Shown one piece after another: positions 30,071-30,392 of a stretch of 64,000 bases of DNA. The stretch is taken from the sequence record PQ818761.1; one strand, written 5' to 3'. The first letter of the stretch is position 1. Every line of letters begins with the position of its first letter. Origin of the DNA: Escherichia phage EcoM2. Below the pieces are notes generated by a model. The model saw only the letters and a program-made list of their open reading frames with translations, searched no databases and was not told where the DNA came from. Made by a program: the position numbers and the translations under genes.

Positions 30071-30099
30071 TTGACATTGAGATGTGACCACTTTATAGT
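30071..30099 (+). promoter_or_regulatory. sigma70-like promoter (TTGACA-N17-TATAGT) inside tRNA array
   Basis: Consensus hexamers; followed by ~290 nt with no tRNA and no ORF of 60 aa or more. Confidence 0.55.
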
Positions 30100-30392
30100 A
30101 ACTAAAATACTTCATAATATGTATAATTCAAACACCAATACATGAGCGTTAGACGTAACACAATGTGGGGAAATTTGTTGTACATATTCTGAATAGTTTT
30201 CGTTGCGTAGCGTCTATTTTGCAAATTTAAAATAAATGCAAACGACAATGTTTTTCTGGCAGTAGCTTGATAGGCTAAACACCAGTGAGGTCTTCCAATC
30301 CCTCATCAAAGAATTTGGCGTACTAGCCCACGGTATGATTAATAAAGTGGGCATCTTTAAGGGCTTTCTAAGAGAGTCTTTAAAGATAATTA
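30100..30392 (+). ncRNA. promoter-proximal non-tRNA transcribed segment (candidate sRNA or long leader)
   Basis: Directly downstream of a consensus promoter; no ORF of 60 aa or more; only a 16-codon ATG ORF at 30142. Confidence 0.3.

What the first reader, a model, noticed from the sequence alone, without database searches (positions are those of the whole stretch)
30071..30392. Consensus promoter inside the tRNA array drives ~290 nt with no tRNA or ORF
TTGACA-N17-TATAGT at 30071-30099 is followed by about 290 nt containing no tRNA and no ORF of 60 aa or more (only a 16-codon ATG ORF at 30142). It may encode a phage sRNA or a long structured leader for the downstream tRNA-like genes.
Basis: seen in the sequence. 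Interest (0 to 1): 0.45.

Follow-up and report, generated by a model that had tools for sequence, protein, structure and literature searches.

The report
Phage tmRNA-like RNA without tRNA domain
Behind the promoter lies an unannotated RNA gene, shared by hundreds of unrelated enterobacterial phages, that copies the tag-coding half of the bacterial ribosome-rescue RNA (tmRNA), lacks its tRNA half, and carries a 5' arm complementary to the host's own tmRNA, which suggests these phages tamper with ribosome rescue.

Summary
TTGACA-N17-TATAGT is at 30071-30099, and about 290 nt follow with no tRNA and no ORF of 60 aa or more. The window is a Felixounavirus.

The segment is not a spacer. Positions 30194-30392 belong to a large unannotated phage RNA family built like the mRNA-like half of tmRNA:
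- A U(-5)A(-4) upstream motif and a GCA resume codon at 30238.
- An exactly 10-codon tag frame (ANDNVFLAVA; E. coli ANDENYALAA), with stop codons in a hairpin loop.
- Two pseudoknots supported by compensatory changes (18 of 26 pairs; 0 of 500 shuffles).

132 loci carry such 10-codon frames. They come from at least 12 phage groups, including P1, Vi1-like and N4-like phages and prophages. No tRNA-like domain is present, and ARAGORN and Rfam do not call it a tmRNA.

The conserved 5' arm (30194-30220) is antisense to E. coli ssrA nt 81-106, and to nt 68-106 in relatives. It matches host tmRNA better than the RNA's own template in 83 of 84 members.

My best reading, as inference, is a TLD-less surrogate tag template that docks on, or silences, host tmRNA. 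I found no description of it in the literature I could search.

The parts
30071..30099 (+). Sigma-70 promoter TTGACA-N17-TATAGT. The predicted start is about 30105-30107.
   Evidence: 11 of 12, best in 27-35 kb. Conserved in Felixounaviruses. Equivalent promoters lie directly upstream of the element in other lineages. The start site is inferred, not measured.
30106..30193 (+). Optional 5' hairpin domain, an insertion relative to many Felixounaviruses.
   Evidence: Absent in L117, L128 and L142, where the promoter abuts 'CTTAGTTTTCG', and in the 72-73% coverage hits. Folds as a long hairpin, z = -2.6. A homologous domain precedes the element in Chaseviridae phage SKA49.
30194..30220 (+). 5' arm UAGUUUUCGUUGCGUAGCGUCUAUUUU, antisense to host tmRNA (E. 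coli ssrA nt 81-106: A-rich linker, resume codon, codons 1-6).
   Evidence: 'UAGUUUUCGU' is the exact reverse complement of ssrA 'ACGAAAACUA'. 0 of 300 shuffles reach the observed score. The first 9 nt are unpaired in the centroid fold.
30229..30237 (+). A-rich stretch upstream of the resume codon, with U at -5 (30233) and A at -4 (30234).
   Evidence: Aligns with posterior probability near 1 to the Rfam tmRNA and tmRNA_permuted consensus 'AAUAAaUGCaAACGA'. U85 and A86 of E. coli tmRNA set the reading frame (PMC2481249).
30238..30273 (+). Tag reading frame GCA AAC GAC AAU GUU UUU CUG GCA GUA GCU (ANDNVFLAVA), then UGA UAG.
   Evidence: 132 related loci all have exactly 10 codons ending in Ala followed by TAA, TAG or TGA. 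ARAGORN itself reports 'ANDNVFLAVA**' as a tag in relative L209.
30256..30285 (+). Helix 5 analogue: the 3' half of the tag frame pairs downstream, with the stop codons in the loop.
   Evidence: GC:48, AU:27, CG:2 at one pair; all 5 pairs of the outer helix change on both sides.
30285..30318 (+). Pseudoknot PK2: stem GUGAGG/CCUCAU, plus loop CCAA (30296-30299) pairing with UUGG (30315-30318).
   Evidence: 99.7% and 99.0% of cells paired. Pair types UA:41/CG:35, GC:48/AU:28, GC:53/AU:23 and AU:63/GC:13.
30319..30352 (+). Pseudoknot PK3: CGUAC/GUAUG and GCCCAC/GUGGGC around the loop AUUAAUAA.
   Evidence: stem 1 is 99.5% paired (CG:62, GC:8, UA:7; CG:68, UA:7). All 4 pairs of stem 2 change on both sides.
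30353..30387 (+). Terminal hairpin. It is the minimal version of the long helix that carries variable inserts in relatives.
   Evidence: Phage D4 has a larger insert in the same stem with the pairing kept. It is homologous to CACAAC-AGGUAAGAGCAUU...AGUGCUCUUUCC-GUUGUG in other lineages.
30393..30471 (+). Downstream odd tRNA-like gene. It is not part of the RNA but probably defines its 3' end through RNase P cleavage.
   Evidence: Rfam tRNA 31.7 bits. Replaced by a normal tRNA-Arg in phage pinkbiff. It is an independent family also found in phages with no tag motif within 1.5 kb on either side of it. The RNase P step is inferred.

Best explanation
The promoter drives a gene for a stable structured RNA. 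The RNA is about 200 nt, or about 290 nt with the optional 5' hairpin present in this phage. It derives from, or mimics, the mRNA-like half of tmRNA.

Shown here:
- It has a frame-setting U(-5)A(-4) motif and a GCA resume codon.
- It has a 10-codon degradation-tag-like frame, ANDNVFLAVA.
- Its stop codons sit in the loop of a helix-5-like hairpin.
- Two pseudoknots and a closing hairpin follow.
- It has no tRNA-like domain.
- Its conserved 5' arm is complementary to the single-stranded template region of the host's tmRNA.

Inferred:
- The arm anneals to host tmRNA. The free 5' 'UAGUUUUCGU' would act as a toehold on host codons 3-6, which are exactly the codons that differ in the phage's own template.
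- This masks the host tag template and places the phage template next to the host tRNA-like domain and SmpB.
- The result would be a chimeric two-piece tmRNA that rescues ribosomes but writes the phage's tag.
- A weaker form of the same idea is plain antisense silencing of host tagging.
- The 3' end is probably made by RNase P cutting at the downstream tRNA-like gene.
For: Identity as a tmRNA-like template:
- Rfam aligns 30218-30270 to the tag-start consensus of tmRNA_permuted and tmRNA with high posterior probability.
- 132 loci have exactly 10 codons of the form AN[DE]xxx[LK]x[AV]A plus a stop.
- The stop is TAA, TAG or TGA, and all four Ala codons occur at codon 10.
- ARAGORN reads the same tag in L209.

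Structure:
- 92.9% of cells are paired against 85.1% in shuffles. 18 of 26 pairs change on both sides.
- The covariation score is 0.290 against 0.138, with 0 of 500 shuffles as high. Slid controls give 30-42% paired.
- RNAfold z = -4.3.

Distribution:
- 614 phage records match, and at least 12 phage groups are represented.
- 691 of 5426 E. coli genomes have a match, mostly on P1-like plasmids and never annotated.
- The promoter sits next to the 5' end in several lineages.

Antisense arm:
- All 84 arms map to ssrA nt 65-107. There are 1503 complementary positions against 156 mismatches over 56 unique arms.
- 0 of 300 shuffles reach the observed score in 6 of 7 members tested.
- The arm fits host tmRNA better than its own template in 83 of 84 (median duplex -29.7 against -15.1 kcal/mol).
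- 71 of 84 arms carry GCGAC-like (complement of host GUCGC) and not GCAUU (complement of their own AAUGC).
- Cofold gain is -16.8 (L104) and -14.4 (L006) against about -5 for shuffled arms.

ssrA is present with this sequence in 5426 of 5426 E. coli genomes.
Against: There are no expression, end-mapping or interaction data.

In this window the arm is short: 27 nt, about 23 pairs with bulges. Its predicted net gain on cofolding (-7.2 kcal/mol) is within the range of shuffled-arm controls (mean -4.9, minimum -8.8). L005 is similarly weak.

In this phage the 88-nt hairpin lies 5' of the arm, so the toehold is not at the transcript's end unless the RNA is processed.

I had only the E. coli ssrA sequence, so arm and target covariation across hosts could not be tested. 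Pairing-preserving transitions outnumber pairing-breaking ones only 29 to 13, and transversions dominate.

The arm also pairs in part with the RNA's own resume region. It could be a relic of an intramolecular PK1-like fold.

Some larger relatives carry T-arm-like hairpins, and in Ackermannviridae a T-arm followed by ...GGCUCCA. The family may therefore have, or have had, an acceptor domain of its own.

Rfam scores are far below gathering (7.6-20 bits against 47).
Confidence: 0.45

Rival explanations
1. It is the coding piece of a phage-owned two-piece tmRNA. The tag template is translated by trans-translation, but the alanyl-acceptor piece is a separate phage RNA. That piece could be one of the odd tRNA-like genes in the array, or the T-arm/CCA modules seen in larger relatives. 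Host tmRNA is not the partner.
For: Natural two-piece tmRNAs exist, and Rfam's best weak hits are to permuted models. Odd tRNA-like genes flank the element at 30393-30471 and 30618-30700. The first has G3:U70, A73 and an encoded CCA in this phage. Larger relatives contain T-arm-like hairpins and, in Ackermannviridae, a conserved T-arm followed by AAA(C/G)GGCUCCA.
Against: G3:U70 is not conserved in the 30393-30471 family: muut has G3:C70. That family occurs in phages with no tag motif within 1.5 kb on either side of it, and other Felixounaviruses have a normal tRNA-Arg in its place. No complementarity between the element and these tRNA-like genes was found. About half of the loci have no tRNA-like gene within -600..+1200 nt. 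The proposed Ackermannviridae acceptor stem overlaps a better-supported local helix.
Confidence: 0.15
2. It is a decoy or sponge. The RNA mimics the tmRNA template and pseudoknots to titrate a tmRNA-binding factor (SmpB, S1, RNase R), or it only blocks host tmRNA by antisense pairing. It is never translated.
For: It has no tRNA-like domain. It has an antisense arm. tmRNA-like pseudoknots are conserved.
Against: A pure decoy does not explain several features. The length is an exact 10 codons in 132 loci. The stop is invariant in position but free in identity. The last codon is Ala with all four synonyms. The AND/E start and the hydrophobic x[AV]A end parallel the E. coli degradation tag ANDENYALAA.
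Confidence: 0.2
3. It is an ordinary transcribed spacer or leader of the tRNA operon, or a decaying ssrA fragment picked up from a host, with no function of its own.
For: It lies inside a tRNA array and has no terminator before the next tRNA genes.
Against: It is conserved at 70-82% identity across unrelated phage families while the flanks are not. It shows compensatory changes in four of the six tested helices, with mixed but partly mispaired evidence in the other two. It has its own promoter in several lineages. It is present where no tRNAs are near. Outside the tag start it is not similar to E. coli ssrA.
Confidence: 0.03
4. It holds small protein genes on the minus strand (30214-30354, 46 aa; 30102-30248, 48 aa), as annotated in some GenBank records.
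For: ORFs exist. Some records annotate hypothetical proteins here.
Against: The frame of the 46-aa ORF has a stop within +/-22 codons of the conserved motif in 68 of 82 relatives. The substitution pattern is paired compensatory change, not codon-like.
Confidence: 0.02

Closest known systems
Standard one-piece tmRNA (ssrA; Rfam RF00023) of gamma-proteobacteria
   Same: It shares the A-rich upstream stretch with U(-5)A(-4) and the GCA resume codon. The tag is 10 codons, starts AND/E and ends in small hydrophobic residues. The stop codons sit in the loop of helix 5, and pseudoknots follow the frame.
   Different: It has no acceptor stem, no T-arm and no CCA, and the primary transcript starts at the arm. 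It is about 200 nt instead of 363. It has two pseudoknots plus a hairpin instead of PK2-PK4. The PK1 position is taken by an arm complementary to host tmRNA. Rfam scores 7.6-20 bits against a gathering score of 47, and ARAGORN makes no call.
Two-piece (circularly permuted) tmRNAs of alpha- and beta-proteobacteria and cyanobacteria (Rfam RF01849-51, RF04321)
   Same: A coding piece without a complete tRNA-like domain works only when base-paired to a separate acceptor piece. Rfam's best weak hits are to these models.
   Different: In those RNAs both pieces come from one permuted gene and are held together by the acceptor stem and P2. Here no acceptor piece is encoded next to the element. The only extended complementarity found is to the template region of the host's one-piece tmRNA.
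Phage-encoded complete tmRNAs (huge phages, marine methylophage and pelagiphage-like contigs)
   Same: A phage carries trans-translation RNA. Viral contigs with alpha-type tags (ANDNFASEELRLAA and others) were seen. Papers PMC7162821 and PMC9004378 were listed for holding the term tmRNA many times. I did not read them.
   Different: As I recall from general knowledge, not checked here, those are recognisable tmRNAs with tRNA-like domains. This family is not recognised by tmRNA finders and lacks that domain.
Trans-acting antisense and prophage 'anti-sRNA' regulators
   Same: It has a short 5' single-stranded seed with perfect complementarity to an abundant host RNA.
   Different: The target would be tmRNA, not an mRNA or sRNA. 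The regulator also carries a full surrogate template and pseudoknots.

Membership tests
tmRNA (one-piece, RF00023) | tRNA-like domain: 5'/3' acceptor stem with G3:U70, T-arm and 3' CCA | tested here: not met
   ARAGORN finds no tmRNA in the window or in 89 of 90 relatives. The Rfam alignment covers only model positions 56-294. There is no T-loop between 30056 and 30392.
tmRNA (one-piece, RF00023) | Tag reading frame that begins at a resume codon without AUG or SD, preceded by an A-rich stretch with the conserved U85/A86 equivalents | tested here: met
   ...AAAAUAAAU GCA at 30229-30240. It aligns to the Rfam consensus with posterior probability near 1. The role of U85/A86 is from PMC2481249.
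tmRNA (one-piece, RF00023) | Short frame encoding a degradation-type tag with a hydrophobic Ala-rich C-terminus, ended by a stop in the helix-5 loop | tested here: met
   ANDNVFLAVA plus UGA UAG. 132 loci have 10 codons each. Helix 5 covaries. That the tag acts as a degron was not tested.
tmRNA (one-piece, RF00023) | Pseudoknots downstream of the frame | tested here: met
   PK2 and PK3 have compensatory changes. There are two plus a hairpin, not three.
tmRNA (one-piece, RF00023) | Score at or above Rfam gathering (47 bits) | tested here: not met
   7.6-16.3 bits for RF00023 and 20.3 bits for RF04321.
tmRNA (one-piece, RF00023) | Aminoacylation with alanine, SmpB binding and trans-translation | not testable with these tools
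   This needs biochemistry.
Two-piece tmRNA | An acceptor piece encoded in the same permuted gene, upstream of the coding piece, and paired to it through the acceptor stem and P2 | tested here: not met
   The upstream neighbour is a normal tRNA-Ile (62 bits). There is no acceptor-piece-like sequence at 30056-30193. ARAGORN's single permuted call (L209) borrows an upstream tRNA.
Two-piece tmRNA | A coding piece that depends on base pairing with another RNA that supplies the tRNA-like domain | tested here: inconclusive
   Extended complementarity exists, but to host ssrA nt 68-106. Whether a complex forms is untested.
Trans-acting antisense RNA against host tmRNA | Conserved complementarity to the target beyond chance, at a fixed target site | tested here: met
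   All 84 arms map to ssrA 65-107. 0 of 300 shuffles reach the score in 6 of 7 tested. 90.6% of aligned positions are complementary.
Trans-acting antisense RNA against host tmRNA | Thermodynamically favoured heteroduplex once the structures of both RNAs are counted | tested here: inconclusive
   Met for L104 and L006 (-16.8 and -14.4 against about -5). Not met for the window RNA (-7.2 against a control minimum of -8.8) or for L005. Pseudoknots are ignored by the model.
Trans-acting antisense RNA against host tmRNA | Physical interaction and an effect on the target in vivo | not testable with these tools
   Needs RIL-seq or CLASH, EMSA and genetics.
tRNA operon leader or spacer | Sequence conserved only together with the adjoining tRNAs, with no independent structure | tested here: not met
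   It is found without nearby tRNAs in about half of the loci. It has covarying structure.

The most novel reading that the evidence does not exclude
Enterobacterial phages encode a 'template cassette' RNA that hijacks host tmRNA. Its 5' arm strand-invades the host tag template. The phage template, with its own frame-setting motif and pseudoknots, is then read by rescued ribosomes. Host tmRNA would thus become the acceptor piece of a chimeric two-piece tmRNA, and the degradation tag written on stalled proteins would be reprogrammed by the virus.
Probability: 0.3. Interest if true: 0.95.

Novelty: new variant of a known kind. Interest (0 to 1): 0.8.

Why it matters
tmRNA is regarded as a self-contained molecule that is both tRNA and mRNA. 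A widespread RNA that keeps only the mRNA half and is aimed by base pairing at the host's tmRNA would be a new way for a virus to intervene in ribosome rescue and protein quality control.

The family sits unannotated in very well-studied and therapeutically used phages. These include P1, in the ban operon leader, as well as Felix O1-like, Vi1-like and N4-like phages. It is also present in about 13% of complete E. coli genomes.

The idea is directly testable: look for the phage tag on proteins, for RNA-RNA ligation with tmRNA, and for effects of compensatory arm and ssrA mutations. If the docking idea is right, it also offers a simple tool for rewriting the ssrA tag in trans.

Even if only the conservative part holds, it fills a gap in phage genome annotation and in Rfam.

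Tried and rejected
1. The tRNA-like gene at 30393-30471 as the missing tRNA-like domain.
- For: in this phage it has G3:U70, A73 and CCA.
- Against: the family has an invariant CUUCUAA anticodon loop and a covarying anticodon stem, and G3:C70 in phage muut.
- Against: it occurs in phages with no tag motif within 1.5 kb on either side of it, and pinkbiff has a normal tRNA-Arg in its place. Rejected.

2. A standard acceptor stem formed by distant 5' and 3' ends.
- The scan found only local partners in the window.
- In Ackermannviridae a GCUGUUU...AAACGGC-U-CCA pairing is possible, but it overlaps a covarying local helix and would give U3:G70. Left open, not accepted.

3. A PK1 formed within the RNA (AGUUUUC/GAAACU and CUUUG/CAAAG). 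It is 88% paired with no covariation. The arm fits host ssrA better.

4. Sense homology of the arm to tmRNA nt 14-31. It gave no local alignment scoring above 17, against 27-36 for the antisense alignment.

5. A second antisense match (30278-30297 against ssrA 203-222, score 20). It is within the null range.

6. Minus-strand ORFs. Broken in relatives.

7. An SmpB homologue in the window. None.

8. Rfam at gathering and E-value thresholds. No family beyond weak tmRNA hits.

9. Literature. Ten searches, including the tag peptides as strings, found no description. P1's record annotates only a 'dicF-like region' just upstream.

10. The first IMG/VR pattern scan returned a different, alpha-proteobacterial tag type and chance hits. 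It was not used for the family.

Full report
**Where we are**

The window is a Felixounavirus. It is 99% identical to Escherichia phage mio over 29900-30900. A tRNA array of 25 ARAGORN genes runs from 28699 to 34157 on the + strand. The finding lies between tRNA-Ile (ends 30055) and an odd tRNA-like gene at 30393-30471 (Rfam tRNA 31.7 bits).

**The observation**

TTGACA-N17-TATAGT is at 30071-30099. It is the best sigma-70-type match in 27-35 kb, at 11 of 12. Such matches as a class are not enriched there: 21 found against 17.8 expected. Sequence alone therefore proves little.

No tRNA and no ORF of 60 aa or more lie in 30071-30392. No + strand terminator-like site follows before about 34287.

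Conservation gives the promoter weight:
- It is kept in mio, pinkbiff and D4.
- In Felixounaviruses that lack 30106-30193, the same promoter sits 5 nt before 'CTTAGTTTTCG' (L117, L128, L142).
- In unrelated phages (Roufvirus L007, Swiduovirus L008, Nonanavirus L010, Erwinia Kolesnikvirus L013), a TTGACA with a 16-17 nt spacer and a -10 box ends 5-9 nt before the same 'TAGTTTTCG'.

**The lead**

A blastn search with 30056-30392 found 614 phage records. The sub-segment 30229-30353 is 70-82% identical in unrelated groups:
- Jedunavirus and Swiduovirus
- Roufvirus (an Aeromonas phage)
- Nonanavirus
- Schitoviridae (Pollock, St11Ph5)
- Ackermannviridae (Taipeivirus, Kuttervirus, Aglimvirinae)
- Erwinia Kolesnikvirus

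It is almost always unannotated.

**What the sequence is**

Read on the + strand, the block is ...AAAAUAAAU GCA AAC GAC AAU GUU UUU CUG GCA GUA GCU UGA UAG. That gives ANDNVFLAVA followed by two stops. The E. coli ssrA template...AAAAUAGUC GCA AAC GAC GAA AAC UAC GCU UUA GCA GCU UAA, gives ANDENYALAA (ssrA sequence verified).

The homologous blocks give ANDTEFLAVA, ANDNTFLAVA, ANDDVVLMAA, ANEEMYLAVA and ANDAQFLAVA.

Two pattern scans of IMG/VR and of one genome per species, together with the phage loci, gave 132 loci. In all of them the frame is exactly 10 codons, ends in Ala and is followed by a stop. They collapse to about 90 distinct sequences. Stops are TAA, TAG or TGA. The last Ala uses all four codons. 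Codons 4-6 vary freely.

Rfam aligns 30218-30270 to the tag-start consensus of tmRNA_permuted (20.3 bits). It aligns 30218-30390 to tmRNA model positions 56-294 (7.6 bits; 16.3 bits for 30202-30391 in the wider search). The posterior probability over UAAAUGCAAACGAC is near 1, but the scores are far below the gathering score of 47.

The U at -5 and A at -4 correspond to U85 and A86. A86 is the main frame-setting base of E. coli tmRNA (PMC2481249).

**Structure**

On 77 distinct sequences (alignment A1) I tested helix 5, PK2 (a stem plus loop-to-downstream pairing) and PK3 (two stems):
- 92.9% of cells are paired against 85.1% in shuffles.
- 18 of 26 pairs change on both sides.
- The covariation score is 0.290 against 0.138, with 0 of 500 shuffles as high.
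- Slid controls give 30-42% paired. My own count agrees.

The clearest case is the PK2 loop pairing, where CCGA/UCGG, CCAG/CUGG and CCAA/UUGG alternate. The P1 version uses GUCG/CGAC.

The window RNA 30192-30392 folds at -58.7 kcal/mol, z = -4.3.

The frame of the minus-strand 46-aa ORF, which some records annotate, is broken in 68 of 82 relatives.

**No tRNA-like domain**

ARAGORN calls no tmRNA in the window or in 89 of 90 relatives. Its one permuted call (L209) reports the tag ANDNVFLAVA** by borrowing an upstream tRNA.

There is no T-loop in 30056-30392.

The neighbouring gene at 30393-30471 tempted me, because in this phage it has G3:U70, A73 and CCA. It belongs, however, to an independent family found in 7t3, Sugarland, muut and others:
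- The anticodon loop CUUCUAA is invariant and the anticodon stem covaries.
- G3:U70 is not conserved.
- No tag motif lies within 1.5 kb on either side of it in those three phages.
- Pinkbiff has a normal tRNA-Arg in the same slot.

About half of the family's loci have no tRNA within -600..+1200 nt.

**The 5' arm**

The most conserved part of the 5' end, UAGUUUUCGU at 30194-30203, is the exact reverse complement of ssrA ACGAAAACUA, which spans codons 3-6.

Local alignment of the 5' arms to the reverse complement of E. coli ssrA places all 84 arms at nt 65-107:
- For the window, 30194-30220 aligns with nt 81-106.
- For L104, 36 nt of arm align with nt 68-105.

That region covers the 3' strand of PK1, the A-rich linker, the resume codon and the first six codons.

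Scores are 27-36 against a null mean of about 16. No shuffle in 300 reaches the observed score in 6 of 7 members tested. SKA49-like L164 is the exception, with 6 of 300.

Over 56 unique arms, 1503 aligned positions are complementary and 156 are not.

The arm fits host tmRNA better than the RNA's own template in 83 of 84 members. The median duplex energy is -29.7 against -15.1 kcal/mol. 71 of 84 arms carry GCGAC-like sequence, the complement of host GUCGC, and not GCAUU, the complement of their own AAUGC.

The phage's own codons 4-6 are exactly the part that differs from the host's. The arm therefore cannot fully pair with its own template.

In the centroid fold the first nine bases are free, and the rest of the arm pairs with the RNA's own resume region. 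That is the layout of a toehold switch. This reading is inference.

Caveats:
- Cofolding gives a clear gain for L104 (-16.8) and L006 (-14.4) against about -5 for shuffled arms. For the window RNA the gain is only -7.2, within the control range (mean -4.9, minimum -8.8).
- Wobble-preserving transitions outnumber pair-breaking transitions only 29 to 13.
- I had only the E. coli ssrA sequence, so covariation with the target could not be tested.

**The first 88 nt**

Positions 30106-30193 form a long hairpin, z = -2.6. Many Felixounaviruses lack it. It is not junk: a homologous domain precedes the element in Chaseviridae phage SKA49, whose tag is ANDSEMRVAA. Part of it (CAAACAC...AUG.GA) recurs in the Ackermannviridae 5' region. 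In this phage it lies between the promoter and the arm.

**Family anatomy elsewhere**

Larger members add long helices (CACAAC-AGGUAAGAGCAUU ... AGUGCUCUUUCC-GUUGUG). These enclose variable inserts, often with T-arm-like hairpins. About 40% of members add a 3' domain, GUGGUGAAUGCGCAGGCUGAUGCGC ... CCGGAGAUCAGCACCGG-CCACCAC.

In four of the six Ackermannviridae members examined (L012 differs by one base; L011 lacks the module), a conserved module UUGGGUUCGACUCCCUAAAACGGCUCCA lies 230-770 nt downstream of the resume codon. Whether any lineage has a chargeable end is open.

In lambdoid-type prophages the element lies between a tR'-like terminator and the holin gene.

In P1 it lies in the C1-controlled ban operon leader, between dmt and tRNA-Asn/Thr, with the tag ANDDLMMVAA. 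The record annotates only a 'dicF-like region' just upstream.

691 of 5426 complete E. coli genomes have a match. 591 of the 741 places are on plasmids; the one I examined is P1-like, and most listed are about 90-110 kb. The annotation under the matches is 'none' or 'hypothetical protein'.

**Mechanism**

Shown:
- It is a promoter-driven, conserved, pseudoknotted RNA.
- It has a tmRNA-type template and no acceptor domain.
- It has an arm complementary to the host tmRNA template region.

Inferred:
- The RNA pairs with host tmRNA, masks its template and offers its own.
- The host molecule would then supply the alanyl tRNA-like domain and SmpB. The complex would be a chimeric two-piece tmRNA.
- The 3' end would come from RNase P cleavage at 30393.

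The strict coding-like features of the frame argue that it is translated, which favours this over a pure decoy. The weak energetics for this particular phage, and the acceptor-like modules in some relatives, keep the rivals alive.

**Novelty**

Rfam 15 has no family for it. ARAGORN does not call it. GenBank and RefSeq records leave it blank. Ten full-text searches, including the tag peptides as strings, found nothing.

Many subscription papers are outside that library, so an earlier description cannot be excluded.

I class it as a new variant of a known kind: a tmRNA-like RNA without the tRNA half.

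Noticed in passing
window 30393-30471: An odd tRNA-like gene with no D-arm, an invariant anticodon loop CUUCUAA (UCU), a covarying anticodon stem, a 23-nt conserved 'variable' region and an encoded CCA. 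It is conserved at 83-90% identity in unrelated large phages (7t3 'tRNA-TERM', Sugarland, muut/rV5-like 'tRNA-OTHER/Undet', PBECO4). In this phage its acceptor stem has G3:U70 and A73, which would predict alanine charging of a UCU-anticodon RNA.
   Followed up: partly
window 30618-30700: A second tRNA-like element (Rfam tRNA-Sec model, 23 bits). It has a perfect 7-bp acceptor stem, a T-arm and an apparent 9-nt anticodon loop CCUCCAAAA. ARAGORN does not call it.
   Followed up: no
window 29364-29821: A 458-nt gap in the tRNA array. It holds a partial tRNA-like match (29564-29614, 22 bits), a tRNA 5'-half-like stretch (GTCGAGTTGGTGTAATGGTAGCAC) and a long-range inverted repeat (gtctttgtagataag...cttatctacaaagat). 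This may be another structured RNA.
   Followed up: no
window 27118-28533 (+): The ORF directly upstream of the tRNA array matches Pfam DUF2828 and DUF7788. It is annotated 'vWFA protein' or 'RNA-binding protein' in relatives. Sitting next to an array full of odd tRNA-like RNAs, it could be an RNA-binding partner.
   Followed up: partly
window 31397-31810 (+); L001 3090-3437: A Cys/His-rich ORF with no Pfam hit at 1e-3 sits inside the array in this phage. In phage mio an annotated HNH endonuclease gene is instead inserted just after the 30393-30471 tRNA-like gene. Free-standing endonuclease-type genes seem to move around within the array.
   Followed up: no
L306 (phage P1 AF234172) 611-965; L305 1500-1760: Phage P1 and P1-like plasmids carry a family member (tag ANDDLMMVAA) in the ban operon leader, downstream of the C1-controlled P1ban promoter and a region annotated 'dicF-like', and upstream of tRNA-Asn/Thr.
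   Followed up: partly
L016-L099 (IMG/VR contigs): Many environmental viral contigs carry alpha-proteobacterial-type tmRNA tag templates (ANDNFASEELRLAA, ANDNVASEDFALAA, ANDNFASEDYALAA and others), followed by the GGCAACAGAA motif. This is a different, probably permuted, phage-borne tmRNA type.
   Followed up: no
L005, L012, L165, L186, L205 (Ackermannviridae), +230 to +770 from the resume codon: A conserved module GGUCAGCGCUGGCC-N-UUGGGUUCGACUCCCUAAA(A/G)CGGCUCCA (T-arm-like, then NCCA) lies at variable distance downstream of the element. A 5' GUUUGGGCAC/GUGCUCAAAC helix covaries in L205. This may be an acceptor end for that lineage.
   Followed up: partly
L102, L143, L003 (D4) inserts; e.g. 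L102 -120..-75: An insert module CCCUUAUGGGGCUUGGCUUAAAUGCA recurs inside the long helices of several lineages. It contains UUAAAUGCAA, which resembles the resume-codon context AUAAAUGCAAA.
   Followed up: no
L104 +262..+282, L101, L102: A hairpin with the conserved loop ACGAAAC occurs in prophage-type members. The loop is nearly the complement of the 5' toehold GUUUUCGU, so it may be an internal partner for the arm.
   Followed up: no
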